Source: Escherichia phage Es2. Taken from it: a DNA stretch of 64,000 nt. Position 1 is the first letter of the stretch. Each line of letters opens with the position of its first letter. A program made the position numbers and the translations under genes. This document shows, piece by piece, positions 9,421-63,681 of the stretch. The notes below the pieces were generated by a model that was not told the DNA's origin, ran no database searches, and was given only the letters and a program-made list of their open reading frames with translations. The stretch lies in sequence record OR515477.1. One strand, written 5' to 3'.

Positions 9421-9422
9421 AC

Positions 9423-32495: not shown

Positions 32496-32501
32496 CCAAT
32501 T

Positions 32502-32640: not shown

Positions 32641-32650
32641 TATAAATTTA

Positions 32651-32730
32651 GGGTCGTTAGCCAAGCGGTTTGGCGGTGGACTGTTAATCCATGTCGAAAG
32701 ACAACGTAGGTTCGAATCCTACACGGCCCG
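32651..32730 (+). tRNA. tRNA-Asn (anticodon GTT)
   Basis: Acceptor GGGTCGT/ACGGCCC, anticodon loop CTGTTAA, extended variable region, T-arm GTAGG-TTCGAAT-CCTAC, CCA encoded. Confidence 0.65.
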
Positions 32731-32835
32731 CCAAATTCTGTGTAGAGTTAAGTAAACCGGTAGCCAACCAGCTATCATTGCTGATATCGAATTCAGCCAC
32801 AGATACCATTTTCATTAATAACTGAGGAAACAAGC

Positions 32836-33021
32836 ATGTCCAAGAATGTAATTGCACAGCTAGAAGTTCATCGTGATAACACAGCTAATAACATTAAGTG
32901 CCGACAAAAAGATATTGAAGCTCGAAAGGCTGATCTTTTAATGAGTATTCGAGAGCTTAATGTACGGAAAGAGTTTCTTAAAGAACTTAATGCAGCTATT
33001 GAAAAACTCAAAGTTGAGTAA
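32836..33021 (+). CDS. hypothetical protein
   Basis: 61 aa ORF, coiled-coil-like. Confidence 0.4.
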   Translation: MSKNVIAQLEVHRDNTANNIKCRQKDIEARKADLLMSIRELNVRKEFLKELNAAIEKLKVE

Positions 33022-33030
33022 ATAAATTAT

Positions 33031-33104
33031 GCGACCGGGGCTGGCTTGGTAATGGTACTCCCCTGTCACGGGAGGGAATGTGGGTTCAAATCCCATCGGT
33101 CGCG
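33031..33104 (+). tRNA. tRNA-Asp (anticodon GTC)
   Basis: Acceptor GCGACCG/CGGTCGC, anticodon stem-loop CTCCC-CTGTCAC-GGGAG, T-arm GTGGG-TTCAAAT-CCCAT, CCA encoded. Confidence 0.75.
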
Positions 33105-33132
33105 CCAAATTAATTTAGTATGAGAATATACT

Positions 33133-33480
33133 ATGCGTAATGCTAAAGAAGAGTTGTTACTTGCCTTAAAAAATACTAATTCTGAAGTTAAATGTATTAA
33201 AATAGAATTCGGGTATTATGGGGATAAAAAAGTTTGGGTATTACCTTTAGGTTATACAGAAAAAGATATTGAGGATTTTCTTAATAATCTAGACTTTAAG
33301 TACGATTCTGGGTATGGTGGGCAATTACTTTATGGTAATGTATGGTTTGCCGACGGAACTTGGCTAGAACGTGGGGAATACGATGGTGCTGAGTGGTGGG
33401 AGTACAAAGCTACCCCGGAAATTCCAGAGGAATGCCGAACAATTAATGGTGAAGTAGATAATACTTTACTATTAAACTAA
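33133..33480 (+). CDS. hypothetical protein
   Basis: 115 aa ORF. Confidence 0.5.
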   Translation: MRNAKEELLLALKNTNSEVKCIKIEFGYYGDKKVWVLPLGYTEKDIEDFLNNLDFKYDSGYGGQLLYGNVWFADGTWLERGEYDGAEWWEYKATPEIPEECRTINGEVDNTLLLN

Positions 33481-33602
33481 AAGAATTTCAGTGCAGAACA
33501 CGGAGCTAGCAATTCGGAAGTGCTGACTCATGATAAGCTGCCTATGTACTTGCTAAGCGGTCGTGTCCAAGACTCGGACTCTTGCACTGAAAACAATCAA
33601 AC

Positions 33603-33723
33603 ATTCTAGCGTGGTTGATGGGGAAACCAGCTTGGCTAGGGCAGAAGCTCGTTCGATTCGAGTGAAAGAATGGTTCTCGTAAGTCCGCACAAGTGATAGC
33701 AGGTTCGAGTCCTGTCTAGAATG
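33603..33723 (+). ncRNA. long tRNA-like element (~121 nt)
   Basis: Perfect 7 bp acceptor pairing ATTCTAG/CTAGAAT, T-arm GCAGG-TTCGAGT-CCTGT, internal second T-arm-like GCTCG-TTCGATT-CGAGT; too long for a canonical tRNA. Confidence 0.4.
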
Positions 33724-33731
33724 ACACTATA

Positions 33732-33859
33732 AAGTTTACTTATTATGTAGGTTCCGATAGATCGGCGGGTCTATTCTGGCATTTAAGAGAAGTCTCGCAA
33801 ACTTCTTTGTCAGCCGTGGGGTTGGTAGCCTCCAGGTGGCCTACACAATAAGTAAATTT
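33732..33859 (+). ncRNA. long hairpin element (20 bp stem enclosing ~88 nt)
   Basis: AAGTTTACTTATTATGTAGG (33732-33751) pairs with CCTACACAATAAGTAAATTT (33840-33859); sub-hairpins inside; no ORF. Confidence 0.4.
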
Positions 33860-33872
33860 ATTAAAAATTCAT

Positions 33873-33901
33873 TTGCTATTTTTCTTAATTATCTGTATAA
33901 T
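33873..33901 (+). promoter_or_regulatory. early-type sigma70 promoter
   Basis: AAAAATTCATTTGCTA, 17 bp, TGTATAAT. Confidence 0.6.
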
Positions 33902-33933
33902 ATATTTTATAAAGTGAAGAGAAGGAAAGCAAA

Positions 33934-34092
33934 ATGAAACACAAGATAGCCCAAGTTTTTATGGCATTATGGTGTATGCCAATAGCTATAACAGCATTTA
34001 ATCTAGATACTTTTACTATAGAAGAAAAATGTATCGGATTAGTTAGCGGCTTTAGTATGCTTGGCTTATCTTTGTTGTGGTTGAAGAAATAA
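33934..34092 (+). CDS. small hydrophobic protein
   Basis: 52 aa ORF MKHKIAQVFMALWCMPIAITAF... after promoter 33873-33901; below track cutoff. Confidence 0.4.
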   Translation: MKHKIAQVFMALWCMPIAITAFNLDTFTIEEKCIGLVSGFSMLGLSLLWLKK

Positions 34093-34096
34093 TATT

Positions 34097-34171
34097 CTCC
34101 GTGTAGCTCAGTTTGGCCAGAGCGTTTCGTTTGGGGCGATAGGGTCGGGGGTTCAAATCCTCCCACGGAGA
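34097..34171 (+). tRNA. tRNA-Pro (anticodon TGG)
   Basis: Acceptor CTCCGTG/CACGGAG, D-arm GCTC..GAGC, anticodon loop TTTGGGG, T-arm GGGGG-TTCAAAT-CCTCC, CCA encoded. Confidence 0.7.
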
Positions 34172-34180
34172 CCAAACAAT

Positions 34181-34255
34181 TGCGGGTTAGATCTCTGGTA
34201 GAGATCGCTAGTCTCATAAGCTAGAAAGAGGTAGGTTCGATTCCTGCACCCGCTT
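34181..34255 (+). tRNA. tRNA-Met/Ile2 (anticodon CAT)
   Basis: Acceptor TGCGGGT/ACCCGCT (1-72 mismatch), anticodon stem-loop CTAGT-CTCATAA-GCTAG, T-arm GTAGG-TTCGATT-CCTGC, CCA encoded. Confidence 0.65.
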
Positions 34256-34278
34256 CCATTTTAATAGAGGATTTCGAA

Positions 34279-34446
34279 ATGAAAGTATTTCGATTAGTAG
34301 TAAGTGACAAACGGTTAGGTAAGAATACATCAAAATCCCTACTCGCTCATTACGGTAAAAATTGGGATGAAGTAATGGCAGAGTTTAGTACTAATCACCC
34401 TTACTTGAAAGTTCACTCTATTAAAGAAGTATATAATGGTTACTAA
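34279..34446 (+). CDS. hypothetical small protein
   Basis: 55 aa ORF with GAGGA RBS between tRNAs; below track cutoff. Confidence 0.4.
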   Translation: MKVFRLVVSDKRLGKNTSKSLLAHYGKNWDEVMAEFSTNHPYLKVHSIKEVYNGY

Positions 34447-34447
34447 T

Positions 34448-34523
34448 AGATCGCTAGCTCAATAGGTTTAGTAGCATCCGACTTTTAATCGGAAGGTTCT
34501 GGGTTCGAGTCCCAGGCGATCTA
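34448..34523 (+). tRNA. tRNA-Lys (anticodon TTT)
   Basis: Acceptor AGATCGC/GCGATCT, anticodon stem-loop TCCGA-CTTTTAA-TCGGA, T-arm CTGGG-TTCGAGT-CCCAG, CCA encoded. Confidence 0.75.
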
Positions 34524-34530
34524 CCAAATT

Positions 34531-34601
34531 GCTCGGTTAGTTTAATGGGAGAACCCCGTCTTTACACGGCGGTTGAGATAGTTCAATTCTATCACCGAGT
34601 A
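34531..34601 (+). tRNA. tRNA-Val (anticodon TAC)
   Basis: Acceptor GCTCGGT/ACCGAGT, anticodon loop TTTACAC, T-arm GATAG-TTCAATT-CTATC, CCA encoded. Confidence 0.7.
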
Positions 34602-34623
34602 CCAATTAACTCAAAATAAGGAA

Positions 34624-34983
34624 TTGCAAATGCAATTATCAAGCAAGATTCAAGGTTATTTCGGTCATGTAACAATGGAGTTCGCTATCTCTAAAGGTTG
34701 GGACTTCGAACAAGATTTAGCTGAGTTCTACAAAGATATTGATCTGAACGTACCGTACATGGGACTTTCTACTGGTCAGGAGATCACAGAAGCCGATGTA
34801 TTCAAGGCAAGTCAAGGTGAGGTAACACCTAGTTTTGCCGAGTTCTGGTTAGGCATTACGTTAAAAGAAGATGCACCAGATAGTGGTGTACTAATGTCTA
34901 GTATGCACTCTGGAAGTTCCGATTACCTTTTCATTAGCGATGTTAAGGAAATACAAGAAGTCTGCAAAAATGTACTTGCTTGA
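34624..34983 (+). CDS. hypothetical protein
   Basis: 119 aa ORF with AAGGA RBS. Confidence 0.5.
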   Translation: MQMQLSSKIQGYFGHVTMEFAISKGWDFEQDLAEFYKDIDLNVPYMGLSTGQEITEADVFKASQGEVTPSFAEFWLGITLKEDAPDSGVLMSSMHSGSSDYLFISDVKEIQEVCKNVLA

Positions 34984-35004
34984 TGCTTAATTTCTTGTTA
35001 TAAT
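34976..35004 (+). promoter_or_regulatory. early-type sigma70 promoter
   Basis: TTGCTT, 17 bp, TATAAT; followed by hairpin GATGAGGA-GAAA-TCCTCATC. Confidence 0.55.
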
Positions 35005-35242
35005 ATTTATATAAATTGATGAGGAGAAATCCTCATCATAGTTCACTAAGGTATTAGCTCGACCTAGGACTGGCTGCCAAAAAGCACGATCCCTACGATT
35101 CGGGAAAAGTTCTAGATTGGTCCACTAGATTCAGCGGCAACTGAATAGTGTATTGGGTTTGCGAGATGACGTAGTTCCTTCCGCTCTAAGCGAAGGTGCT
35201 GTAGTTACGCCGAGCTAATAGCCTTAGTAAACTAAAGAATTT

Positions 35243-35318
35243 GGGGAATGGGTCTGCATGGAGTGGACACCTCGCTTGCACCGAGGACATCAGAACGGTT
35301 CGATTCCGTTATTCTCCA
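35243..35318 (+). tRNA. tRNA-Ala (anticodon TGC)
   Basis: Acceptor GGGGAAT/ATTCTCC, anticodon stem-loop CCTCG-CTTGCAC-CGAGG, T-arm AACGG-TTCGATT-CCGTT, CCA encoded. Confidence 0.7.
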
Positions 35319-35326
35319 CCAAATAC

Positions 35327-35400
35327 GCGTGATTGATGGAATGGGCATACATACCGTCCTTAGAAGTCGGGTTTTGAGGGTTCGAATCCCTTGTCACGCA
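35327..35400 (+). tRNA. tRNA with anticodon TAG (Leu-decoding; class I architecture)
   Basis: Acceptor GCGTGAT/GTCACGC, anticodon loop CTTAGAA, short variable arm, T-arm GAGGG-TTCGAAT-CCCTT, CCA encoded. Confidence 0.55.
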
Positions 35401-35515
35401 CCAAATTTGATGGTCAGAGTAAATTAAACCTACTATCTCGGTTGAGCTGTTTTAATGGGTTCGAATCCCAGCGGGGCGTAACTGCCTGGTGTGATAGAGG
35501 CATCATCTTATTATT

Positions 35516-35603
35516 GGAAGAGCAAATCGAATTGGCGACGAAAACCGCTTGGAAAGTGGCTGACTGGTAAAACGGCTTGAGAGTTCAAATCTCTCCTCTT
35601 CCG
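35516..35603 (+). tRNA. tRNA-Ser (anticodon GGA)
   Basis: Acceptor GGAAGAG/CTCTTCC, anticodon loop TTGGAAA, 18 nt variable arm, T-arm GAGAG-TTCAAAT-CTCTC, CCA encoded. Confidence 0.7.
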
Positions 35604-35618
35604 CCAAACAATTTATAT

Positions 35619-35710
35619 GGTAGGTCAATCCAATGGCTGGCGCTGGACTCCGACTTGAAATCGGTTGATCGTAGTGATACGGTGTAAGGGTTCGATCCCC
35701 TTACCTACCT
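35619..35710 (+). tRNA. tRNA-Ser (anticodon TGA)
   Basis: Acceptor GGTAGGT/ACCTACC, anticodon loop CTTGAAA, 20 nt variable arm, T-arm AAGGG-TTCGATC-CCCTT, CCA encoded. Confidence 0.7.
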
Positions 35711-35716
35711 CCAAAT

Positions 35717-35850
35717 CTTGAAGTATGCCGGAATCGGTAGACGGGGCTGCCTAAAAGGTTTATAGGGAACATCCACTCCCTGCAACATACCTCATAAAGC
35801 GGCTGAGATAAATGGTCTATCTCGTGAAGGTTCAAGTCCTTCTGCTTCTT
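35717..35850 (+). ncRNA. long tRNA-like element (~134 nt)
   Basis: Acceptor-like pairing TGAAGTA/TGCTTCT (6 of 7), T-arm GAAGG-TTCAAGT-CCTTC, internal D-arm-like hairpins; no CCA, no ORF. Confidence 0.35.
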
Positions 35851-35964
35851 GATACATCTATGGCTCAAAGTGTAACGGTGCTATTTGATGCTCTTGGTAA
35901 GACTTCCCCGACATGCGTTCGGGAGTAAGCTGCTAAGACTAGAGTAGAAGAGTTTCTGAGAGCC

Positions 35965-36084
35965 GCCACAATTGAAAATTCGTACTCGTCTTGAGCTGCG
36001 CGCAATAGGAGATAACTTGATTAGTATTCTAGAACATGCTAATTGAGGAAGGTTTCGCTAACCCTGCGAGTTTTCAATTGTGGC
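35965..36084 (+). ncRNA. long hairpin element (18 bp stem enclosing ~85 nt) abutting tRNA-His
   Basis: GCCACAATTGAAAATTCG (35965-35982) pairs with CGAGTTTTCAATTGTGGC (36067-36084); the 3' arm overlaps the tRNA-His acceptor. Confidence 0.4.
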
Positions 36085-36153
36085 TATATCATAATTGGTT
36101 AATGATCCTGATTGTGAATCAGGCCTATGTGGATTCGAATTCCACTAGCCACC
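36080..36153 (+). tRNA. tRNA-His (anticodon GTG)
   Basis: Acceptor GTGGCTA/TAGCCAC, D-arm TCAT..ATGA, anticodon stem-loop CCTGA-TTGTGAA-TCAGG, T-arm GTGGA-TTCGAAT-TCCAC, CCA encoded. Confidence 0.7.
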
Positions 36154-36180
36154 CCAAATTAACTTAAATAGGAAATAAAT

Positions 36181-36387
36181 ATGGCTGATTTCTGCAAACA
36201 ATGCTCCATTGATATGTGGGGTAAAGATACTGGTGATCTTTCTGGTTTGATTACAGAAGCTGAAGTTAAAGAAGGCTACGGTGCTGCTGTGATCTGCGAA
36301 GGATGCGGAGTTATTCGAGTAGATCATGAAGGCAAACGTTTAGAAGATCCAAAAAGTATTAAGAAGAAGGTTAGCCAAGTAGGTTAA
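36181..36387 (+). CDS. small zinc-ribbon protein
   Basis: CKQCS...CEGCG motifs, 68 aa; 3' end overlaps tRNA-Gln. Confidence 0.5.
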   Translation: MADFCKQCSIDMWGKDTGDLSGLITEAEVKEGYGAAVICEGCGVIRVDHEGKRLEDPKSIKKKVSQVG

Positions 36388-36437
36388 GGCTGGGGTCTCT
36401 GAAATCCTGATCAGTGGTTCGAATCCACTACCTTCTG
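36365..36437 (+). tRNA. tRNA-Gln (anticodon CTG)
   Basis: Acceptor AGAAGGT/ACCTTCT, anticodon loop CTCTGAA, T-arm AGTGG-TTCGAAT-CCACT, CCA encoded. Confidence 0.6.
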
Positions 36438-36446
36438 CCAAACAAT

Positions 36447-36521
36447 TGGGGATTAGCTTAGCTTGGCCTAAAGCTTCGGCCTTTGAAGTCGAGATCATTG
36501 GTTCAAATCCAATATCCCCTG
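36447..36521 (+). tRNA. tRNA-Gln (anticodon TTG)
   Basis: Acceptor TGGGGAT/ATCCCCT, D-arm GCTT..AAGC, anticodon stem-loop TCGGC-CTTTGAA-GTCGA, T-arm ATTGG-TTCAAAT-CCAAT, CCA encoded. Confidence 0.65.
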
Positions 36522-36534
36522 CCAGCTAAATTAA

Positions 36535-36607
36535 TGCGTGATTAGTTCAGTGGCTAGAATAACTGGCTTCCAACCAGTAGACACGAGTTCGACTCTCGTA
36601 TCCCGCA
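36535..36607 (+). tRNA. tRNA-Gly (anticodon TCC)
   Basis: Acceptor GCGTGAT/ATCCCGC, anticodon stem-loop ACTGG-CTTCCAA-CCAGT, T-arm ACGAG-TTCGACT-CTCGT, CCA encoded. Confidence 0.7.
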
Positions 36608-36624
36608 CCAAATAAGGAAACGTT

Positions 36625-36846
36625 ATGCACGTTTTTGAGTTTCGTAATAAAAATACTGATAAGCGAGTTATCATTATTGGAGAAACATACCGAGCATATG
36701 AACAAACTGACGGCTCTGTTATCTTGAATGATGAGAAAGGAGGTTTTAGCTTTTATCCAGAAGAACCTTATGAAGAGTTTCGTACTAAGTTTCTTTTACC
36801 AGACTGGCTAGCAGTAGCCGAGCAACGAGAATCCGAAGATGGCTGA
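36625..36846 (+). CDS. hypothetical protein
   Basis: 73 aa ORF, AAGGAAAC RBS. Confidence 0.5.
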   Translation: MHVFEFRNKNTDKRVIIIGETYRAYEQTDGSVILNDEKGGFSFYPEEPYEEFRTKFLLPDWLAVAEQRESEDG

Positions 36847-37001
36847 TAACCTAAAATTAAGGGTCGACAAACAAAAGAAATACATTGAGGTTGAATTAGG
36901 CGAAGAACGATTAAAGCTAACTTTCGAGTTTCTTCAGCAGTTGGCTATGACAGTTATGACTGATAAGTCTCCTGTTATTGAAAAAGAAATCCCGTTGAAA
37001 T
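36840..37001 (+). CDS. hypothetical small protein
   Basis: About 53 aa ORF (MADNLKLRVDKQKKYIEV...) overlapping the previous stop; coordinates +/-2. Confidence 0.35.
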
Positions 37002-37012
37002 AACGGGATCAT

Positions 37013-37085
37013 CGCTCCTAAAGCATTGCTGGCGATGCAGTTGCCTTGTAAGCATCTGAACCGGGTTCGATTCCTGGTGGGAGCA
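37013..37085 (+). tRNA. tRNA-Thr (anticodon TGT)
   Basis: Acceptor GCTCCTA/TGGGAGC, D-arm GCAT..ATGC, anticodon loop CTTGTAA, T-arm CCGGG-TTCGATT-CCTGG, CCA encoded. Confidence 0.65.
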
Positions 37086-37103
37086 CCAAATTTAAAAATT
37101 CAT

Positions 37104-37132
37104 TTGCTTTCTCTCTTATTTATTGTTATAAT
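37104..37132 (+). promoter_or_regulatory. early-type sigma70 promoter
   Basis: AAAAATTCATTTGCTT, 17 bp, TATAAT. Confidence 0.6.
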
Positions 37133-37162
37133 ATTCATATAAATTAATGAGAGGGAAGCCAA

Positions 37163-37456
37163 ATGAAACGTTATCTTTCTGTTGTGTTCCAAACTGGTGG
37201 TCAACGCTATACTTACGAATTTCCTGGCTCTTGGAAGATCAAAGAAGGTGATCAAGTAGTAGTGTTAACACCGCGTGAGGGTTTTAAGGTAGTAACGGTT
37301 AAGCAAGTATTTCCAAAAGAGCGTGAACCAGCTAAAGGCATTCGCTATAAGATGATTCATGGTGTAGTTCGTCAAGTACCACGAGCGGAAGTCGAAATCA
37401 AAGTAGATAAAGATGGTAAACTTAAATATACCTCTTGCTTAGACGAGTTGCTATAA
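37163..37456 (+). CDS. hypothetical protein
   Basis: 97 aa ORF after promoter 37104-37132. Confidence 0.5.
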   Translation: MKRYLSVVFQTGGQRYTYEFPGSWKIKEGDQVVVLTPREGFKVVTVKQVFPKEREPAKGIRYKMIHGVVRQVPRAEVEIKVDKDGKLKYTSCLDELL

Positions 37457-37662
37457 TGAGGATTACTTTTACAGAAAAGATCATGAGTAATGGTGTTATG
37501 ATCATTACCGCATGGGATGGTAATCAGTGGTGTAGTGTTTCAGGTATTAAGCCTGAAGAACAAACACTAGATAATATCTCAAAGATTAAGCGAAGAATGA
37601 CAGAACGTGCACGACTTCCAGGTGCACCTAGAAATGGCAAACGTTCTGCTGCAAAATGTTAA
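37456..37662 (+). CDS. hypothetical protein
   Basis: 68 aa ORF starting at overlapping TAATG. Confidence 0.45.
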   Translation: MRITFTEKIMSNGVMIITAWDGNQWCSVSGIKPEEQTLDNISKIKRRMTERARLPGAPRNGKRSAAKC

Positions 37663-37663
37663 T

Positions 37664-37737
37664 GCTTCGGTAGCTTAGCGATCTAAAGCACTCGGCTGAT
37701 AACCGAGAGATCGGGGGTTTAAATCCCTCCCGGAGTA
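37664..37737 (+). tRNA. tRNA-Ile (anticodon GAT)
   Basis: Acceptor GCTTCGG/CCGGAGT, D-arm GCTT..AAGC, anticodon stem-loop CTCGG-CTGATAA-CCGAG, unusual T-loop TTTAAAT, CCA encoded. Confidence 0.7.
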
Positions 37738-37836
37738 CCAAATTTAGGAATTAAGACTATGCGTCCAGGAAAGTTTAAAAAAGCTAATTGGTCTAAAGAG
37801 TATAAAGAATACTTACTTAGTCTAGTAAAACATAAT

Positions 37837-37909
37837 AGTTAGTTGGCAGAGTGGTTATGCACCTCCTTCATACGGAGCGACTACAGTGGTTCAAATCCAC
37901 TACTAACTA
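37837..37909 (+). tRNA. tRNA-Met/Ile2 (anticodon CAT)
   Basis: Acceptor AGTTAGT/ACTAACT, anticodon loop TTCATAC, T-arm AGTGG-TTCAAAT-CCACT, CCA encoded. Confidence 0.65.
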
Positions 37910-37949
37910 CCATTAAAAGAGCTAGAGATAGCTAACTTTAGGAGCAGCT

Positions 37950-52876: not shown

Positions 52877-53475
52877 TGTTCACACAACAACCTATTCAAG
52901 TAGTACCAGACCATGAACTGAACACATGGGATTATAGCTTTAAAGATTTAACTGCTACTGTACAATTCAAATCTATGAAGCTAACATTTGCACACACTGA
53001 CCTTAGAGCATGTAAAGATCTTGAAGGTAAGCTAGAAGATGCTCGTAAGATTTTTGGCAAGGCTCGCATCCCGGCTGATAACCTGATTAATGCACTGATC
53101 GATGCAGGATACAAACTCGTGAAGGCTGAGGTTAACCGTCCTAGTACTCCAGTGACTATTAGAGATCCGTGGCAATCAGGGCCAATCGCAATGCTAAATA
53201 AATCATCGGATTTGCACAATGTTCCATGTGGCGGTACGCTGTCGTCTAATCAATCCTATCGAGTTGGGGAAGATTATGGGCCTTCTATACAGTTGAAACA
53301 TACTCAAGAAGCTCTTGAGTCTGACATGAAAAGCGTAGCACCGGGGAACTCTGGAGTTTCTAGGAATTCTGTCTATACTGTTCATTTAAACAATCCTGGT
53401 AATCATGGAAGTTTAGAGGATGCTATTATGGAGGCGTTGGGAGCTGTCATTAATGAAGATAAGAGAGGTAATTAA
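52876..53475 (+). CDS. hypothetical protein
   Basis: 199 aa ORF. Confidence 0.5.
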   Translation: MFTQQPIQVVPDHELNTWDYSFKDLTATVQFKSMKLTFAHTDLRACKDLEGKLEDARKIFGKARIPADNLINALIDAGYKLVKAEVNRPSTPVTIRDPWQSGPIAMLNKSSDLHNVPCGGTLSSNQSYRVGEDYGPSIQLKHTQEALESDMKSVAPGNSGVSRNSVYTVHLNNPGNHGSLEDAIMEALGAVINEDKRGN

Positions 53476-53822: not shown

Positions 53823-54532
53823 TTAAAGAAGCCGAAAAATTAAAACGTCTCATCCAGCTAGCGCGGGGTGCTACACAAAAGAGTCTTTCCCAGCTAACTA
53901 ATGAAGAAAAATATGCAGTAATGTTTTTAGGAGATCATTATCCTGCTAGGTGGGATAAAGGTAAGATCAAGTATGATCGTGATGCAAAACAAGTTGTTTG
54001 GTCAGGCTCATATGTAGAAGTGAATAAAGCATTAAAGGCTTTAGATCCTGAAGCAAAAGGTTTCTCTTCTAATGCTATTCATATTCTAATTGATGAAGAT
54101 CTCCCAAGATTTAAGGAAGCATCATTTAAAGAAGCATTAGCTAGTGAAGATCTTATTCCTTTTAAACACGGTAAGTATGCACATCTTCCACCACTAGAAA
54201 AAGAGAAACCTACTCTAGTTAAAGATGAAGTTTATCGTGGGATTGGCACAATGCTAGCGAGTTTGACTGTAGCTCTCCATAAAGATCTAGAGTTAACGCC
54301 CCTAGAAAACGCTGTGCATTTCATGTGCCATAAGTACGAGGATACATTTAAAGAGCTATGTAAGTCGCTAGGAATGCCAAGTTACACGATATTAAACTAT
54401 GCTCCTGAATATACTAGAGCAGCTCGTGGAACTATGGATTACGATGATACAGGATCCACTGCTTCCTATTTAGCAACTTATATCTACTTCGCATCCTTAG
54501 GTATCAAACTCAAATCCAAGAAGGAGGAATAA
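53819..54532 (+). CDS. hypothetical protein
   Basis: 237 aa ORF; last gene before the repeat region. Confidence 0.5.
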   Translation: MIKEAEKLKRLIQLARGATQKSLSQLTNEEKYAVMFLGDHYPARWDKGKIKYDRDAKQVVWSGSYVEVNKALKALDPEAKGFSSNAIHILIDEDLPRFKEASFKEALASEDLIPFKHGKYAHLPPLEKEKPTLVKDEVYRGIGTMLASLTVALHKDLELTPLENAVHFMCHKYEDTFKELCKSLGMPSYTILNYAPEYTRAARGTMDYDDTGSTASYLATYIYFASLGIKLKSKKEE

Positions 54533-54547
54533 AAGTTAACAAAAAGT

Positions 54548-54576
54548 TCTTGCATTCTCATACCCAAACATGTTAT
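54548..54576 (+). promoter_or_regulatory. sigma70-like promoter (TTGCAT, 17 bp, TATAAT)
   Basis: ttcTTGCATtctcatacccaaacatgtTATAATaatc. Confidence 0.5.
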
Positions 54577-54582
54577 AATAAT

Positions 54583-54750
54583 CTCATAGATTAACAACTA
54601 CTCTAGTTGATTAACTCTAGGGGCGATGATTATTACACGAATGTCTCGTATAGCTTGCGGCCTAGCAACAGCGGTATGACGGCATGAGTACTCACGTAAT
54701 TAATCACGCGCCCACAGGAGAGACTCTCATGAAATTGGGGGTCTCTTTTT
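54583..54750 (+). ncRNA. candidate small RNA unit (promoter to terminator, no ORF)
   Basis: Bounded by promoter 54548-54576 and hairpin AGAGAC...GTCTCT plus TTTTTCTTT (~54713-54750); internal inverted repeat TTAACAACT...AGTTGATTAA. Confidence 0.35.
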
Positions 54751-55042
54751 CTTTATATTATTTAAATATTTTTAATGGCAATATCTGTGTTCAAGATGAT
54801 ACACCTGTTGCCGCTCATCTGCTAGGATGGCACAACACTTTCTTCTAGACTCCTAAGTTTCTAGGAATAGTTGAGCACTAACTCTAGAGTTTACATTAAA
54901 CTTTAAATCTGTTTCTCTAGTCAACTCAGGCGGTTTTCATATTCCTAGAAACTCTAGCAATAGGCGGTTAATACAGGGCGGTTTTAGGGAGGGCGGTTAT
55001 TTCTAGAAGACATTTTTTGAAAACACATTTCTAGAAATTACT

Positions 55043-55643
55043 GTCGTATTTGCACACTGCATTTCTAGAAATTTATGGTCGGATTTGCACAAACGCCTAA
55101 GTTTTTAGGAACATATAATCTCTTGAAAATGGCAGCATTATTTCGGGCCGAAGGCCCGTGATTGCCTGAGTTTTTAGAGCCACAAGAATTTTCACTTGTC
55201 AAGCTATTTTGCCCCATTTAGCAAATAAAATTTTACTTTATCTCCTCTAATCTCAAATTAACCCAAATCTTCTCAACTCTTCCCCAAAATACCCGCAAAT
55301 CAGGTGCTCCGCACCAAACATGCGCCTCTCCCACAGTTCCCCCAAAATTTCTCTCGCTCTCTCAACTTCTCCCCAAACATACACAATCACACACCCTCCA
55401 ATCGAAGCCACAAAAATCTTGTCGGATTCGCACATCTTAATCCTAGAAAAACCGTGTCGGATTTGCACATACCCCACAGGATTCGAACGCAGTTCGAGAT
55501 TGCTGGAGTTTTTAGGAAAATTCATTGTCGGATTCGCACACTATAAAAATTTTTCGGGTCGGATTTGCACACTACCAAAAATTGTCGGATTCGCACATAC
55601 ACGCCCGCACGTAACACCCGTGGAGCAATGTCGGATTTGCACA
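55043..55643 (+). repeat. eight dispersed copies of a 14 bp motif GTCGGATT(T/C)GCACA
   Basis: Copies at about 55043, 55078, 55421, 55456, 55527, 55558, 55584 and 55630; interspersed TTCTAGAA palindromes and GGCGGTT repeats. Confidence 0.7.
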
Positions 55644-55646
55644 AAA

Positions 55647-55668
55647 GCGCAGGGCAATTGCCCTGCGC
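55647..55668 (+). repeat. perfect palindrome GCGCAGGGC-AATT-GCCCTGCGC
   Basis: 9 bp arms with 4 nt centre; read directly. Confidence 0.8.
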
Positions 55669-55669
55669 T

Positions 55670-55900
55670 AAATGAGAATAAAAATAAGAATCATTCTCAT
55701 TTAGAAAGCGGAATGAGAATGATAATAATTCGCATTTAGAAAGCGAAATGAGAATCAATCTCATTTAAGAACGGAAACGAAAATTATTCAGGAAGTGAAA
55801 CGATTCTCATTTAGAAAGTGGAATGATTCTCATTTAGAAAGTGGAATGCAAATGATAATGATTCGCATTTAAGAATGGAAGTGAGAAACACTGTTATTTA
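55670..55900 (+). repeat. tandem ~28-30 bp direct repeats (CTCATTTAGAAAG[CT]GGAATGA-like), about 6 units
   Basis: Repeated ATTCTCATTTAGAAAGCGGAATGAGAATGA-like units with variants; no ORF. Confidence 0.7.
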
Positions 55901-56010
55901 AGTTATCCACAGACTTATCAACAGCACGATTTGACTTGACAAAATTCTAGCCATTTTGAGGCGTTATCAACAGACTTATCAACAGCTTATCCTACTGTAT
56001 AAATATACAG
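55881..56010 (+). repeat. left composite inverted repeat (IR-A and IR-B) with DnaA-box-like TTATCCACA
   Basis: IR-A 55881-55918 is 37/38 identical to the reverse complement of 59205-59242; IR-B 55971-56010 is 38/40 identical to the reverse complement of 59113-59152. Confidence 0.75.
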
Positions 56011-56207
56011 TATTCCTATGCAGTGAATAATTCTAATATACAGCTAAAACGCTCTCAAACGCATTCTAACGCGTTTAATTTTGGTGGGGATACTAAAACA
56101 CGGGCAAAATTGGAGGAGGCTTAGAAATTAGTTAGCTCGCTAACGATCACACAAGGCGACACGTAACATCCTAACCATTAGCAGGCTAACCATCGCGGGC
56201 GCGGTCA

Positions 56208-56228
56208 AATGAGAATGATTCTCATTTG
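56208..56228 (+). repeat. palindrome AAATGAGAAT-G-ATTCTCATTT
   Basis: 10 bp perfect arms; same half-site as the 55670-55900 repeats. Confidence 0.75.
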
Positions 56229-56378
56229 AGAATTGGGGGCACTTCCTGATAGTTGCGCCCCGTGATTATTACAGTAGTGGGCAACCTTTACGCTTTGCCC
56301 ATTCCCGCCACTCATCTTGATGTCTAGACTTGCGACGGCGTACTAAAAACCATTTATACCAGTGATTAAACCATCGTT

Positions 56379-58846: not shown

Positions 58847-59112
58847 TTGTTCGGCCTCCTCGTTAATCGGTGAGTGAATGATAAAGGTATTTTCTTTCTA
58901 GGGGCAAATATTATTTTACCTTTTTATTTTCTTTGCCTAACTCCTAGTTTTATGCTAATCGCGCAGCGGTACAGTAAAGAGCAAAACACGGCGAAGCCAC
59001 CAGGGCGACGGGTGAAGGCTTTACTTTAATATTACCCCACTGCATTTAGCTCGTTAGAAAGCGATTTAGGCCGCTTAAAATTGATTGCAGTTGTTAACAC
59101 TACCTTTTTACC

Positions 59113-59242
59113 CTGTATATTTATACAGTAGGATAACCTGTGGATAAGTCTGTGTAAAAGTCCTTATATCGCCGCCTATCATGTCAAGTTATTTTACAAA
59201 ATGTATAAGTCTGTGGATAACTTAAATAATAGTGTTTCTCAC
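59113..59242 (+). repeat. right composite inverted repeat (IR-B' and IR-A') with two TGTGGATAA DnaA-box-like sites
   Basis: Reverse-complement match to 55881-56010. Confidence 0.75.
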
Positions 59243-59410
59243 TAACTAATTTATGCAGTTATTATATCGTAAAATATAGTTAGTTGGCTAATAGGATTTT
59301 AAAGTGATTATGAGTCCGCTAATTAAACCTGAAAAACTCATTAGCTAGTCTGCTAATCATTTTGATATAATATAATAGAGATTAAATTAATAACATAAGG
59401 AAACAATTAG

Positions 59411-59929
59411 ATGCCTAAATATAAACATATAGATTATGACCTTTTTAATAGTTACTTTTATTATGATGAAACATCGTTATCATTTTTACGCTGGCGAGAA
59501 GATCATGCCATCGCTGGTGGTTTAAATGGTAATTATTGGCAAGTTGAATTATTAGATAAAGGACAATTCAAAGTACATAGAATTATTTTTTGTATAATGA
59601 ATGGTGGTATAGATAGCGAGCTAATGATTGATCATATTGATCGTAACCCCCGTAATAATAACATTTGGAATCTTCGCGCGGTTGATAGTTCCCAGAATAA
59701 CTATAATAAGACTCCTAGTGAGTATGAAAACTATAAGCGTGCTAATGGTATCCCTAGAAACATTTACGTTAATAAAATTCGCCCCCGTGATAGTTTCGGG
59801 CGTGATTATTTAACTGCTCAAATTAAGAATCCTATTACTAACAAGCGTGTTAGTAAGTCTGGTTATGATTTACAAGAGTTATTATTATGGCTTGAAGCTA
59901 AAAAAGCTGAATTCGGAATTGTCAATTAA
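59411..59929 (+). CDS. HNH endonuclease
   Basis: DHIDRNPRNNNIWNLRAV HNH motif; AAGGAAAC RBS. Confidence 0.65.
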   Translation: MPKYKHIDYDLFNSYFYYDETSLSFLRWREDHAIAGGLNGNYWQVELLDKGQFKVHRIIFCIMNGGIDSELMIDHIDRNPRNNNIWNLRAVDSSQNNYNKTPSEYENYKRANGIPRNIYVNKIRPRDSFGRDYLTAQIKNPITNKRVSKSGYDLQELLLWLEAKKAEFGIVN

Positions 59930-61225: not shown

Positions 61226-61633
61226 ATGACTAACGCAAAAACCGCAAAATTCGCATGGAATGAAGAAAACACCCAAAAAGCTGTTACCATGTACCAGCAG
61301 TTAATCAACGAAAACGGTTTAGATTTCGCAAATAGTGACGGGCTGAAAGAGATTGCAAAAGCAGTAGGCGCGGCTTCTCCCGTATCCGTTCGCTCAAAAT
61401 TGACCAGTGCAAAAGCCTACCAGAAAAGCGATAAGCCGCGTAAAGTTGGCGGCGGCAGTTCTGTACGCAAAGCGCATTATGTGCGTGTTATTGCTAAACA
61501 TGCCATTGATTCCGGCATTATCAAAGACGCTGACGATCTGGCATCACTGGAAAGTGCAAAACTTGAAACGCTGGACGCGGTAGCGCAATTGCTAGGCGTT
61601 GCCGATGAAGTGAAACAAGCCGCAGGCGAATAA
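61226..61633 (+). CDS. hypothetical protein
   Basis: 135 aa ORF with AGGAG RBS. Confidence 0.5.
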   Translation: MTNAKTAKFAWNEENTQKAVTMYQQLINENGLDFANSDGLKEIAKAVGAASPVSVRSKLTSAKAYQKSDKPRKVGGGSSVRKAHYVRVIAKHAIDSGIIKDADDLASLESAKLETLDAVAQLLGVADEVKQAAGE

Positions 61634-61920: not shown

Positions 61921-62016
61921 TGTTGCAAATTATAACGCCTATTATTCAAGGCGTTATATTTGGCAATATTTGCCAATAACAAACGTTTTTTAATCCCTTT
62001 AATGGAGTTTATTACT

Positions 62017-63681
62017 ATGATTATTTCCGCAGAAAAACAAACCGTTATCCTGAAAATGGCCGCTGACTTTAATTTCTATGGTAAACGTCTGCGCGCCACT
62101 AAACTGGAGGTCTGCGACGATATATCAAAAGCGGTCTACGATACAACAAAACACTCGACCGCCATTTGTGATTGGCTGGAAGCAAATAAACCAGTTAAAC
62201 CAAAAGCTGCAAAAGTAGCAAAAGCTATTAAAAACGATGAGCGCCCCGAAGCGGCTGGGATCGTTTCTAGCACGGTTGAACAGTGGGAAGTAAAACAAGG
62301 CAAACGCTTTATTATTACGTCGATTCAGAATAATACTTTCCCGCATAAAAACTTTTTGGCCTCGCTTGAACAGTATGCTAAATACATCGGCGCTGATTTG
62401 CTTGTTTCTAAGTATATTTATAATAAAAACGGCTTCCAAAATGGTGAAGGTGCGGATGGAATCAAATATGATTCCGCGTTCGATAAGTATATTTGCAGCA
62501 AAAACGTGTTTTTAAACAACCGCCGTTTTGCTTTCATGGCTGAAATTAACGTTTTGCCTACCGCAGATTATCCGCTTTCTGGATTCGCTGAAACTGCAAC
62601 GGCGCTTAATCTTGAAGGTCTGGCAATTGGTCACGCTAAAATCACCGCCGAAAGCGTGCCAGCTTTAAAAGGTGAAGTAGTACGCCGCATGTACTCAACC
62701 GGAACGGCAACGCTAAAAAACTACATTCAGCAGAAAGCAGGGCAAAAAGCGGAAGCGCTGCATAACTTCGGTGCGCTGATTGTTGAGTTCGACGAAGACG
62801 GTGAGTTTTTTGTACGCCAGCTTGAAACAATGGACGAAAGCGGGGTGTTTTATGATCTGAATGTTTGCGCTACTCCCGCAGGATGCTATGAAACATCGGG
62901 GCATGTTTTAGGTTTACAATATGGCGACATCCACGCAGAAAAATTAGATGATGATTGTGCCGTTGCGTCATGGGCTGGCGAAAATAGCTTGCTTGATATT
63001 CTTAAACCAAAATATCAGTTTATCCATGACGTTCACGATTTTACATCTCGCAATCATCATAATCGTGCGTCCGGTGTATTCCTAGCGAAACAGTACGCCG
63101 CCGGACGTGATAAAGTTCTGGATGATCTTATCGATACGGGGCGCGTGCTGGAATCAATGGAACGTGATTTTAGTCAAACGATCATTGTTGAATCGAATCA
63201 CGATTTGGCGCTATCCCGTTGGCTGGATGATCGTAATGCTAACATTAAAGACGATCCAGCAAACGCCGAACTATATCACCGCCTGAATGCTGCAATTTAC
63301 GCGGCAATCGGTGAACACGACGAAACGTTTAACGTGTTAGATTATGCGCTGCGCAAGGTTGCAGGTTGCGAGTTTAACGCCATTTTCCTAACAACTGACC
63401 AATCATTTAAAATTGCAGGCATCGAGTGTGGCGTACACGGTCACAACGGCATTAACGGAAGCCGTGGCAATCCTAAACAGTTTAAGAAATTGGGCAAACT
63501 GAACACGGGGCATACGCATACGGCAAGCATTTACGGCGGGGTATACACCGCTGGCGTGGCTGGTAGTCTGGACATGGGTTACAACGTTGGCGCGTCAAGC
63601 TGGACGCAAACGCATTTAATTACCTATGCAAACGGTCAGCGCACTTTGATTGACTTTAAAAACGGTAAATTCTTTGCGTAA
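62017..63681 (+). CDS. A1: A1-like pre-early protein with calcineurin-like phosphoesterase motifs
   Basis: GDIHAE, ESNHD, GHNG and GHTHT metallophosphoesterase motifs; size ~554 aa; gene symbol assigned by analogy to T5 A1 from memory. Confidence 0.5.
   Translation: MIISAEKQTVILKMAADFNFYGKRLRATKLEVCDDISKAVYDTTKHSTAICDWLEANKPVKPKAAKVAKAIKNDERPEAAGIVSSTVEQWEVKQGKRFIITSIQNNTFPHKNFLASLEQYAKYIGADLLVSKYIYNKNGFQNGEGADGIKYDSAFDKYICSKNVFLNNRRFAFMAEINVLPTADYPLSGFAETATALNLEGLAIGHAKITAESVPALKGEVVRRMYSTGTATLKNYIQQKAGQKAEALHNFGALIVEFDEDGEFFVRQLETMDESGVFYDLNVCATPAGCYETSGHVLGLQYGDIHAEKLDDDCAVASWAGENSLLDILKPKYQFIHDVHDFTSRNHHNRASGVFLAKQYAAGRDKVLDDLIDTGRVLESMERDFSQTIIVESNHDLALSRWLDDRNANIKDDPANAELYHRLNAAIYAAIGEHDETFNVLDYALRKVAGCEFNAIFLTTDQSFKIAGIECGVHGHNGINGSRGNPKQFKKLGKLNTGHTHTASIYGGVYTAGVAGSLDMGYNVGASSWTQTHLITYANGQRTLIDFKNGKFFA

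What the first reader, a model, noticed from the sequence alone, without database searches (positions are those of the whole stretch)
54540..56260. 1.7 kb ORF-poor region packed with iterons, palindromes and tandem repeats
The region contains eight copies of GTCGGATT(T/C)GCACA, five or more TTCTAGAA palindromes, four GGCGGTT repeats, a perfect 22 bp palindrome (55647-55668), about six tandem ~30 bp units (55670-55900) and a 21 bp palindrome (56208-56228), with a CA-rich low-complexity stretch at 55260-55420. This density of protein-binding-like sites suggests an origin, a partition or centromere-like site, or the DNA-injection stop signal described for T5-type phages. Its position about 9-10 kb from the window end is consistent with a boundary inside a terminal repeat.
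Basis: partly seen in the sequence, partly recalled or inferred. Interest (0 to 1): 0.6.

Follow-up and report, generated by a model that had tools for sequence, protein, structure and literature searches.

The report
T5-type injection-stop and terminal-repeat junction
This repeat-dense non-coding stretch is the already described "Repeat Region 3" of T5-like phages, which crosses the inner edge of the long terminal repeat and holds the candidate signal that pauses DNA injection after about 8% of the genome; what I could not find in the literature available to me is that many of its repeats read as binding sites for the host proteins Fur, LexA and DnaA.

Summary
The 1.7 kb between the early genes (ending at 54532) and the pre-early genes (from 56269) is non-coding and full of non-random repeats.

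[quoted passage not shown] The region is homologous to T5 "Repeat Region 3", the accepted location of the injection stop signal (iss).
- The GGCGGTT and TTCTAGAA groups carry no T5 name, but recur at the same place in relatives.
- The terminal-repeat boundary maps inside the region, at 55176|55177.

So the finding is already known. The origin and partition readings are not supported.

Three points go beyond the literature I could read:
- The tandem units are canonical Fur-box palindromes.
- T5 palindrome D matches the LexA consensus at 19 of 20 positions. Both are conserved across four genera.
- The DRD 14-mer forms arrays only in contigs of T5-like genome size.

A conserved promoter, long hairpin and terminator module (54551-54757), absent from T5 itself, looks like an unannotated small RNA.

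The parts
54551..54580 (+). Promoter-like site: TTGCAT (TTGACA in relatives), 17-nt spacer, extended -10 TGtTATAAT.
   Evidence: Read directly from the sequence. The -10 element is invariant in 11 phages.
54589..54757 (+). Candidate small RNA: 5' hairpin, 95-nt long imperfect hairpin (54620-54714), then a terminator hairpin with a T-run (54716-54757). Absent from T5 itself.
   Evidence: Folding z-score -5.65. Three divergent interior variants all fold into one long hairpin, z -3.9 to -6.5. Terminator found. Present in 111 phage records. No Rfam match.
54929..54998 (+). GGCGGTT x4 array, on the unique-sequence side.
   Evidence: Relatives carry 2-5 copies at the same place, with a 15-bp period in T5 and IrmaTschudi.
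55001..55091 (+). TTCTAGAA x3 (ATTTCTAGAAAT x2), interleaved with DRD7 and DRD8 as a 35-bp tandem unit.
55130..55215 (.). Highly conserved block holding the GC hairpin CGGGCCGAAGGCCCG (55144-55158) and the inner boundary of the long terminal repeat at 55176|55177 (TTTTTA|GAGCCACAAG).
   Evidence: [quoted passage not shown] Mean identity is 0.95 for 55150-55199 and 0.85-0.86 either side. The motif TTTTCAYTTGTCAA..TTTTGCCCC is also at the My1 boundary.
55200..55420 (+). C-rich, G-poor stretch containing T5 direct repeats DRA2 and DRA3 (55252-55290).
   Evidence: GC skew -0.65. Mapping to T5.
55421..55643 (+). DRD1-6: six copies of GTCGGATT(T/C)GCACA, all in the same orientation.
   Evidence: Arrays of this 14-mer appear only in contigs of T5-like genome size, about 96-122 kb.
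55646..55669 (.). Perfect 24-bp palindrome, equivalent to T5 palJ. It carries the sequence of the T5 'major nick 1, 7.9%' site (CCCTGCGC, 55647-55654, minus strand).
55677..55869 (.). Array of Fur-box-type 9-1-9 palindromes (AATGAnAATnATTnTCATT), including 6-bp-shifted overlapping pairs. Equivalent to T5 DRC1-4, DRE and palE-I. The calculated T5 shear point (9618) maps to about 55695.
   Evidence: Nine of the 10 window matches fall in 55677-56226, against 1.5 expected for the whole window. Published Fur boxes have the same sequence. Conserved in four genera. Mapping.
55880..56010 (.). IRC'-spacer-IRD' (131 bp) with two DnaA-box pairs, each pair 3 bp apart: 55903-55923 and 55964-55984.
   Evidence: Most conserved columns of the region, 0.94. 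Davison 2020.
55993..56012 (.). T5 palindrome D, TACTGTATAAATATACAGTA, which matches the LexA (SOS box) consensus at 19 of 20 positions.
   Evidence: Consensus taken from the literature. Present in all 11 panel genomes.
56205..56229 (.). 25-bp palindrome containing a Fur-type box with no mismatch (56208-56226), 40-45 nt beyond the last pre-early ORF. This segment is absent from T5.
59113..59243 (.). IRC-spacer-IRD (T5 Repeat Region 2), the inverted partner of 55880-56010. It holds two TTATCCACA boxes and a second CTGT-N8-ACAG box (59111-59130).
61226..61633 (+). A2 gene (DNA-binding protein needed for second-step transfer).
   Evidence: phrog_1725, E 8e-52. K38 annotates it as 'A2 protein'.
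61960..63681 (+). A1 gene (DNA transfer protein).
   Evidence: phrog_1745, E 5e-245.

Best explanation
**What it is (shown).** This is the T5-type 'Repeat Region 3'. It is the untranslated junction between the pre-early (first-step-transfer) genes and the early genes of a Tequintavirus. It straddles the inner edge of the roughly 10-kb direct terminal repeat.

**How it most likely works (established for T5; inferred here by homology).** It acts in cis as the injection stop signal. The left genome end enters first and transfer pauses when about 8% is inside. The pre-early proteins A1 and A2, encoded 5-8 kb further into the repeat, are then made and allow the rest of the DNA to enter.

**Mechanism I think most likely (inferred, probability about 0.35-0.4).** The last ~700 bp to enter (55677-56229) is a platform of operators for abundant host DNA-binding proteins:
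- four DnaA boxes, as Davison proposed
- one consensus LexA box
- five to seven Fur boxes

These proteins load on the entering DNA and, together with the inverted partner 3.1 kb away, hold it at the membrane.

The DRD iterons, the nick site and the C-rich tail lie just beyond the pause point. DRD arrays occur only in contigs of T5-like genome size, so I infer they are read by a phage protein. A2 (for restart) and terminase (for cutting the repeat end) are the candidates.

The conserved block at 55130-55215 marks where the repeat end is made.
For: Identity:
- 457 phage records match by megablast, essentially all T5-like, with Salmonella phage VSe12 best at 91.4%.
- Gene order and annotation in K38, HdH2 and T5 agree.
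- Element-by-element mapping onto the T5 annotation succeeds for the DRD, palJ, DRC/DRE, IRC'/IRD', palD and DRA elements.
- The inverted partner is found 3.1 kb away.
- A1 and A2 are present.

Non-coding.

Boundary at 55176|55177.

Literature placing iss here: Davison 2020, a 2026 T5 preprint and the BF23 paper.

Conservation: the DnaA boxes and palD are the most conserved columns, at 0.94 and 0.93.

Host-factor reading:
- Fur-type boxes are enriched: 9 of the 10 window hits lie in about 550 bp.
- They are identical to published Fur boxes.
- The LexA box matches 19 of 20 positions. Only two such boxes exist in the 64 kb window, and both lie in the IRD/IRD' arms.
- The order DRD, Fur array, DnaA pairs, LexA box is kept in Tequintavirus, Epseptimavirus, Sugarlandvirus and Myunavirus.
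- The T5 shear point (9618) falls inside the Fur array.

DRD arrays only in contigs of T5-like genome size.
Against: No experiment has mapped iss to any particular repeat. The 7.9% shear point is a calculated estimate.

Binding of Fur, LexA or DnaA to this DNA has not been tested. Protein loading on DNA that has already entered does not by itself explain a stop.

The same elements also sit in the right-end copy of the repeat, where no injection stop occurs. They may therefore serve packaging, end processing or transcription instead.

I could not read Heusterspreute 1987 or Davison 2015, so I cannot exclude that the Fur and LexA resemblances were noted before.

The boundary here is mapped by homology, not from reads of this phage. 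Two other records annotate it 28 bp and 207 bp away.
Confidence: 0.9

Rival explanations
1. Terminal-repeat end-processing or packaging site. The conserved block at 55130-55215 and the DRD iterons that bracket it (two outside, six inside) would be the recognition array for terminase or another phage protein that generates the right end of the repeat from concatemers. This can coexist with the iss role.
For: The boundary maps to the same base from T5 and HdH2. Its immediate surroundings (55150-55199) are the best-conserved 50-bp bin, at 0.95, and the motif is shared with My1. DRD copies bracket the boundary in the same way in My1. DRD arrays are found only in contigs of T5-like genome size.
Against: No DRD copy lies near the other cut site, the T5 RTR start. 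The T5 terminase recognition site is not known, and nothing here tests cleavage.
Confidence: 0.3
2. Transcriptional control region. The Fur, LexA and DnaA operators, together with terminators, would gate or insulate transcription between the pre-early operon and the early genes in response to host iron or SOS state, with no role in stopping DNA entry.
For: The sites are canonical repressor operators. A -10-like TAGAAT lies 19 nt upstream of the LexA box on the minus strand. Terminator-like hairpins are present. Similar Fur-box arrays occur in a non-coding region of unrelated Phapecoctavirus phages.
Against: The -35 element of the only candidate promoter is not conserved. No gene lies downstream within the region. 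The T5 annotation places no promoter here.
Confidence: 0.15
3. Iteron-type replication origin: direct repeats plus DnaA boxes plus an AT-rich segment.
For: Eight same-orientation 14-mers, four DnaA-type boxes, and 31-33% GC over 55650-55950.
Against: None of the nine flanking ORFs tested hits a Rep-like family; most have no Pfam or functional PHROG assignment. The AT-rich part is made of Fur-type palindromes. T5 origins were mapped near the genome centre, and replication genes are not expressed while only this DNA is in the cell (Davison 2020).
Confidence: 0.04
4. Partition (centromere-like) site.
For: Only the presence of clustered repeats.
Against: None of the nine neighbouring ORFs tested hits a ParA/ParB-type family. 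The phage is virulent with a linear genome, and the region has a documented different context.
Confidence: 0.01
5. Protein-coding in an unrecognised frame. Some records annotate small 'hypothetical proteins' here.
For: ORFs of 50-139 aa exist. CDSs are annotated in chee24, K38, VSe12, Eps7 and others.
Against: No PHROG or Pfam hit. Frames are broken in relatives despite about 80% mean per-column DNA identity. The only ORF that stays open shows differences of 33, 37 and 43 across the three codon positions, and it has lost its start or gained a stop in 3 of 8 relatives.
Confidence: 0.01

Closest known systems
Bacteriophage T5 Repeat Region 3 / injection stop signal (iss) region (AY587007 9194-10409; Wang 2005 annotation; Davison 2020 bioRxiv 10.1101/866236)
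   Same: Same genomic position and the same order of elements: DRD copies, LTR end, DRA, DRD1-6, palJ with the 7.9% nick sequence, DRC/DRE units, IRC'-spacer-IRD' with DnaA pairs 3 bp apart, palD, and the inverted partner in Repeat Region 2. Identity is 84.7% over 1.3 kb.
   Different: The window has a 250-bp promoter-hairpin-terminator module (54540-54790) and a 160-bp segment with a zero-mismatch Fur-type palindrome (56100-56258); neither is in T5. It has four rather than three GGCGGTT copies, and T5 DRD9 has no counterpart. The closest records are Salmonella phages VSe12, NBSal005 and Kenya-K38, at 89-91%.
Fur operators with overlapping boxes (19-bp Fur box; Xanthomonas consensus AATGAgAATcATTctCATT; E. 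faecalis TGAGAATGATTCTCA)
   Same: The tandem units match the 9-1-9 consensus with 0-3 mismatches. They include 6-bp-shifted overlapping pairs, which from my own knowledge are typical of sites bound by several Fur dimers.
   Different: They sit in a phage non-coding region with no iron gene downstream. Five to seven boxes are packed into 200 bp. No binding data exist.
LexA (SOS) box, consensus TACTGTATATATATACAGTA
   Same: 19 of 20 positions match, with an intact CTGT-N8-ACAG core.
   Different: There is no clearly conserved promoter over it. It is one arm-end of a 131-bp inverted repeat whose partner 3.1 kb away carries a weaker copy.
Iteron plus DnaA-box replication origins of plasmids and phages (e.g. 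P1 oriR, pSC101 and lambda ori; named from my own knowledge)
   Same: Clustered same-orientation direct repeats and DnaA boxes.
   Different: No adjacent initiator gene among the ORFs tested. The DnaA boxes are arranged as inverted pairs. T5 origins lie elsewhere.
Non-coding Fur-box array of Phapecoctavirus phages (phiWec190 LC739539 121.7 kb; Schickermooser)
   Same: The same palindrome, AAATGAGAATnATTCTCATTT, repeated about seven times at 24-58 bp spacing in a roughly 900-bp gene-free region.
   Different: An unrelated myovirus subfamily (Stephanstirmvirinae). There are no DRD copies, DnaA pairs or LexA box next to the array, and its role is unknown.

Membership tests
T5-type Repeat Region 3 / iss region | Lies in a Demerecviridae (T5-like) genome between the pre-early operon and the early genes. 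| tested here: met
   The tRNA cluster typical of T5-like phages is also present.
T5-type Repeat Region 3 / iss region | Untranslated. | tested here: met
   No family hits. ORFs are not conserved.
T5-type Repeat Region 3 / iss region | Sits at the inner end of the long terminal repeat and overruns into unique sequence. | tested here: met
   Shown by homology only. The T5 LTR end and the HdH2 right terminus both map to 55176|55177. Reads of this phage are not available.
T5-type Repeat Region 3 / iss region | 131-bp IRD'-spacer-IRC' with two DnaA-box pairs 3 bp apart and the same spacer length as T5. | tested here: met
   55880-56010. Arm coordinates have lengths identical to T5 9332-9462. Boxes are at 55903/55915 and 55964/55976.
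T5-type Repeat Region 3 / iss region | Inverted partner IRC-spacer-IRD about 3 kb further into the repeat. | tested here: met
   59113-59243. Arms are 77% and 97% complementary with 3.1 kb between them.
T5-type Repeat Region 3 / iss region | DRC/DRE tandem units and at least 8 DRD copies in one orientation. | tested here: met
T5-type Repeat Region 3 / iss region | 7.9% single-strand nick site within palJ. | tested here: inconclusive
   The sequence CCCTGCGC is identical to the annotated T5 nick site. Whether the virion DNA is nicked there cannot be seen from sequence.
T5-type Repeat Region 3 / iss region | A1 and A2 genes in the same terminal repeat. | tested here: met
T5-type Repeat Region 3 / iss region | Actually halts DNA transfer in vivo. 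| not testable with these tools
   Needs a blender-shear or qPCR first-step-transfer assay.
Iteron-type replication origin | Iterons adjacent to a cognate initiator (Rep) gene. | tested here: not met
   None of the nine flanking ORFs tested hits a Rep family; most have no Pfam or functional PHROG assignment.
Iteron-type replication origin | AT-rich unwinding element next to the DnaA boxes. | tested here: inconclusive
   55650-55950 is 31-33% GC, but it consists of Fur-type palindromes.
Iteron-type replication origin | Origin activity. | not testable with these tools
   The literature places T5 origins near the genome centre.
Partition (centromere) site | Adjacent parA/parB-type genes. | tested here: not met
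   None of the neighbouring ORFs tested hits a ParA/ParB family.
Fur operator | Match to the 19-bp 9-1-9 Fur consensus, often as overlapping 6-bp-shifted boxes. | tested here: met
   Nine hits at <=3 mismatches in 55677-56226, one with none. Shifted pairs at 55677/55683, 55712/55718 and 55845/55851. Published Fur boxes are identical.
Fur operator | Fur binding and iron-dependent effect. | not testable with these tools
   Needs EMSA, footprinting or a fur host.
LexA (SOS) box | CTGT-N8-ACAG with a close match to TACTGTATATATATACAGTA. | tested here: met
   19 of 20 positions at 55993-56012. Consensus from the literature.
LexA (SOS) box | Overlaps or lies just downstream of a promoter that it represses. 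| tested here: inconclusive
   A minus-strand TTGAGA-17-TAGAAT site lies 19 nt upstream, but its -35 element is not conserved.

The most novel reading that the evidence does not exclude
The 50-year-old unexplained T5 injection stop would be produced by host global regulators. The last ~700 bp of first-step-transfer DNA is a composite landing pad of canonical Fur boxes (5-7), a consensus LexA box and DnaA-box pairs, conserved across four Demerecviridae genera. Occupancy of these sites, with looping to the inverted partner 3.1 kb away, would arrest transfer. The T5-lineage-restricted DRD iterons just beyond the arrest point would be the handle used by A2/A1 to restart it. Separately, the promoter-hairpin-terminator module at 54551-54757 would be a new phage small RNA.
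Probability: 0.15. Interest if true: 0.7.

Novelty: already known. Interest (0 to 1): 0.3.

Why it matters
As a finding it is ordinary. It re-discovers a region that has been sequenced, annotated and compared across T5-like phages since 1987, and it usefully marks where the terminal repeat ends in this genome.

It matters indirectly because the mechanism of the T5 two-step injection is still unknown. Reading the repeats as Fur, LexA and DnaA operators plus a DRD iteron restricted to T5-size contigs turns 'many repeats and palindromes' into a short list of named proteins. These can be tested with existing host mutants and T5 genome-editing tools.

Tried and rejected
- **Rfam** at E<=1 over 50-60 kb gave only chance-level hits inside the Fur array (SprD, PrrF) and nothing for the hairpin module.
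- **Coding tests** on five internal ORFs were negative: PHROGs, Pfam, frame conservation and codon-position bias.
- **BLAST of the tandem units against 5,426 E. coli genomes** gave no match, so there is no host-derived homologue at that sensitivity.
- **Antisense targets of the candidate RNA** within the window: only 11-13-nt chance matches.
- **A LexA-controlled promoter over palD**: the -10 element is conserved but the -35 is not, so I make no such claim.
- **Literature string searches** for the DRD and palD sequences found no paper. A combined search for T5 terms with 'Fur box', 'LexA box' or 'SOS box' returned no paper holding both kinds of term among the 20 listed.
- **Davison 2015 and Heusterspreute 1987** could not be read.
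- **DTR coordinates annotated in K38 and chee24** differ by 28 bp and 207 bp from the T5/HdH2 position. I treated them as less precise, not as real differences.
- **Metagenomic contigs sharing the exact DnaA-pair 23-mer** turned out to be unrelated DnaA-box clusters, not T5-like loci.
- **RNAalifold on the hairpin module** was uninformative for the interior, because MAFFT cannot align the three variants structurally.
Full report
**1. What the window is**

Megablast of 54540-56260 finds 457 phage records, essentially all T5-like (Tequintavirus and Epseptimavirus hosted by Salmonella and Escherichia). The best is Salmonella phage VSe12, at 91.4% over the full length. A more sensitive search finds 581 records and reaches Klebsiella (Sugarlandvirus) and Pectobacterium (Myunavirus My1) phages.

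Annotated neighbours in Kenya-K38, HdH2 and T5 show the window is the reverse complement of the standard T5 map.
- Early genes run on the + strand up to 54532.
- Then comes the gene-free region.
- Then come the pre-early genes of the left terminal repeat, including A2 (61226-61633) and A1 (61960-63681).
- A cluster of 23 tRNA genes lies at 27-38 kb, as in T5.
- The window ends about 1 kb short of the genome terminus.

Yes.
- The 14-mer GTCGGATT(T/C)GCACA occurs 7 times exactly and once with one mismatch between 55043 and 55643, always on the same strand. Chance expectation for the whole window is 0.02.
- GGCGGTT occurs 4 times within 70 bp.
- TTCTAGAA occurs only 3 times exactly.
- The perfect palindrome is 24 bp (55646-55669), and the second palindrome is 25 bp (56205-56229).
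- The tandem units between 55670 and 55900 are real but have irregular periods of 23, 29 and 35 bp.
- The CA-rich stretch has a GC skew of -0.65.

The region is non-coding.
- The five largest internal ORFs have no PHROG or Pfam family, while the flanking genes hit PHROGs at E 1e-42 to 1e-84.
- Four of them are broken by frameshifts and stops in eight relatives whose DNA averages about 80% per-column identity.
- The fifth (55065-55217, minus strand) stays open in most relatives. Its differences are spread evenly over codon positions (33, 37, 43), and it loses its start or gains a stop in three phages.

The repeats are not assembly artefacts, since hundreds of independent genomes share them.

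**3. What it is**

The GenBank record of T5 (AY587007) annotates this region in detail. A pairwise alignment maps most elements of the window onto a named T5 element:

| Window element | T5 element |
|---|---|
| The eight 14-mers | DRD1-8 |
| 24-bp palindrome | palJ, carrying the exact sequence annotated in T5 as 'major single-stranded nick 1, 7.9%' (CCCTGCGC) |
| Tandem units | DRC1-4 and palE-I (Davison's DRE) |
| 55880-56010 | IRC'-spacer-IRD', with arm and spacer lengths identical to T5 |
| 55993-56012 | palD |
| CA-rich stretch | contains DRA2 and DRA3 |

The GGCGGTT and TTCTAGAA groups have no named T5 counterpart, but they recur at the same place in relatives. The 25-bp palindrome at 56205-56229 lies in a segment that T5 lacks.

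The 131-bp inverted partner (T5 Repeat Region 2) lies at 59113-59243.

Davison's comparison of 25 T5-like phages calls this 'Repeat Region 3'. He states that it lies mostly in the left terminal repeat, overruns into unique DNA, is more conserved than the neighbouring genes, and is the probable location of the injection stop signal, iss. Two later papers use the same description. The finding is therefore a re-discovery of a known feature.

**4. The terminal-repeat boundary**

The annotated end of the T5 left repeat (10139) and the physical right end of the HdH2 record map to the same base of the window. The last unique base is 55176 and the first repeat base is 55177 (TTTTTA|GAGCCACAAG). The K38 and chee24 annotations place the edge 28 bp and 207 bp away, which I attribute to method.

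The immediate surroundings of this point (55150-55199) form the best-conserved 50-bp bin of the whole region, at 0.95. The block includes a GC hairpin at 55144-55158 and a motif, TTTTCAYTTGTCAA..TTTTGCCCC, that is also present just inside the repeat edge of the distant phage My1.

So 54533-55176 is unique sequence and 55177 onwards is terminal repeat. The region straddles the edge and does not lie wholly inside the repeat.

**5. Conservation of the architecture**

A motif scan of eleven genomes from four genera shows the same order everywhere:
1. two or three DRD copies outside the repeat
2. the boundary
3. five or six DRD copies inside
4. the tandem palindromes
5. the DnaA pairs
6. palD

In an alignment of nine Tequintavirus and Epseptimavirus genomes, the DnaA boxes (0.94) and palD (0.93) are the most conserved columns. 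DRD scores 0.88 and non-motif columns 0.79.

**6. What the repeats look like as binding sites**

*(a) DnaA.* There are four boxes in two pairs, each pair 3 bp apart, plus two more in the partner. Six of the seven boxes in the 64 kb window lie in these two modules. Davison has already described this.

*(b) LexA.* palD, TACTGTATAAATATACAGTA, matches the LexA consensus TACTGTATATATATACAGTA at 19 of 20 positions. Only one other box of this type exists in the window, and it is the IRD copy at 59111. It is present in all eleven genomes.

*(c) Fur.* The tandem units are 9-1-9 palindromes, AATGAnAATnATTnTCATT.
- Ten matches at <=3 mismatches exist in the window, and nine of them lie in 55677-56226. 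Several are 6-bp-shifted overlapping pairs. The chance expectation is 1.5.
- The same sequence is the published Fur-box consensus of Xanthomonas (AATGAgAATcATTctCATT).
- It is also the Fur box of a Fur-regulated iron transporter operon in Enterococcus faecalis (TGAGAATGATTCTCA, identical to 56210-56224).
- A closely related sequence is listed among Gram-negative iron boxes.
- The exact palindrome also occurs in at least 120 stretches of viral contig DNA, many from contigs far from T5 genome size.
- It occurs as a seven-copy array in a gene-free region of unrelated Phapecoctavirus phages. This fits a site read by a widespread host protein.

*(d) DRD.* Arrays of this 14-mer are found only in contigs of T5-like genome size, about 96-122 kb. 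All other contigs have single copies. From this I infer a phage-specific binder.

Davison 2020 does not mention Fur or LexA. No listed paper in the searchable library combines those terms with T5. I could not read the 1987 and 2015 papers.

**7. How it most likely works**

Shown or established: T5-like phages inject the left end first. Transfer pauses at about 7.9% of the genome, and A1 and A2 are needed to resume. The receptor is not responsible for the stop, because full ejection occurs into FhuA proteoliposomes. All of this comes from Davison 2020.

Inferred here: in T5 coordinates the order of elements is

| Element | T5 coordinates |
|---|---|
| LexA box | 9330 |
| DnaA pairs | 9357-9440 |
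| Fur array | 9473-9636 |
| Calculated shear point | 9618 |
| Nick site | 9661-9668 |
| DRD1-6 | 9672-9895 |
| Repeat end | 10139 |

All the host-factor sites therefore lie on the DNA that has just entered when transfer pauses. The DRD copies and the nick lie just beyond. This fits a nucleoprotein arrest built by host proteins, extending Davison's DnaA idea, with a phage protein acting on DRD for restart or for end processing. I put this at about 0.35-0.4.

The main non-exclusive rival is that the boundary block plus the bracketing DRD copies serve cutting of the repeat end. No DRD copy lies at the other cut site. A purely transcriptional role for the operators is possible, but no conserved promoter supports it. 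Origin and partition readings fail their defining tests.

**8. The left 250 bp**

The segment 54540-54790 has no counterpart in T5 but is present in 111 T5-like records. It contains:
- a conserved promoter with an extended -10 element
- a small hairpin
- a 95-nt long hairpin whose base is invariant
- a terminator

The interior of the long hairpin exists in three quite different sequence versions. Each folds into the same long hairpin, with z-scores of -3.9, -4.3 and -6.5. The whole RNA folds with z = -5.65.

The 39-codon ORF annotated here in some records is shifted by a 1-nt indel in other variants. No Rfam family matches, and no antisense target is visible in the window. It is a plausible unannotated small RNA gene, or alternatively a DNA-level cruciform.

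**9. Verdict**

The feature is already known, so interest is low to moderate. What keeps it from being trivial is that the stop mechanism is unsolved, and the Fur, LexA and DnaA reading offers direct genetic tests.

Noticed in passing
window 54551-54757 (+): A conserved promoter, a 95-nt long hairpin and a terminator form a module that is absent from T5 but present in 111 T5-like records. Three divergent interior variants keep the same fold, and there is no Rfam match. It is a candidate unannotated small RNA. The 39-aa CDS annotated here in VSe12 and K38 is probably spurious.
   Followed up: partly
L046:1195-1405 (Escherichia phage phiWec190, LC739539 ~121.7 kb) and L047:1178-1285 (Schickermooser): Unrelated Phapecoctavirus myoviruses carry an array of about seven copies of the same Fur-type palindrome, AAATGAGAATnATTCTCATTT, in a roughly 900-bp gene-free region. 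The exact palindrome also occurs in at least 120 stretches of IMG/VR viral contig DNA, some as 2-3 copies 30 bp apart (e.g. L113:1810-1888).
   Followed up: partly
window 54852, 55096, 55165, 55503 (also 53351, 42821): A motif, CCTNAGTTTYTAGRA, is repeated four times in the region. The terminal-repeat boundary (TTTTTA|GAG) falls inside the copy at 55165-55179.
   Followed up: no
window 53205-53218 and 54237-54250: Two further DRD-like 14-mers with one mismatch lie inside early genes on the same strand. This resembles T5 'DRD copy 10', which lies inside ORF019.
   Followed up: no
window 59411-59929 (+): An HNH endonuclease ORF (phrog_99) lies next to the IRC-spacer-IRD module. This is the insertion that Davison reports splitting Repeat Regions 1 and 2 in T5, Shivani and FFH1 only.
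   Followed up: partly
L006:475-540, L025:10937-11080, L028:3570-3700: The exact 23-mer DnaA pair, GTTATCCACAGACTTATCAACAG, also occurs in unrelated metagenomic viral contigs. There it sits within denser clusters of DnaA boxes, without DRD, Fur or LexA motifs.
   Followed up: no
L033:3228-3252, L032:3262-3286, L034:3107-3131: Epseptimaviruses carry an extra overlapping pair of Fur-type boxes (1-2 mismatches) about 500 bp further into the pre-early region. This replaces the single zero-mismatch box seen at window 56208.
   Followed up: no
window 55065-55217 (-): A 50-codon ORF spanning the repeat boundary has no indels in nine phages and stays open in six of eight relatives. It shows no codon-position bias, so its openness reflects DNA-level conservation and not coding.
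   Followed up: yes
window 27428-37912: A cluster of 23 tRNA genes lies on the + strand, typical of T5-like early regions.
   Followed up: no
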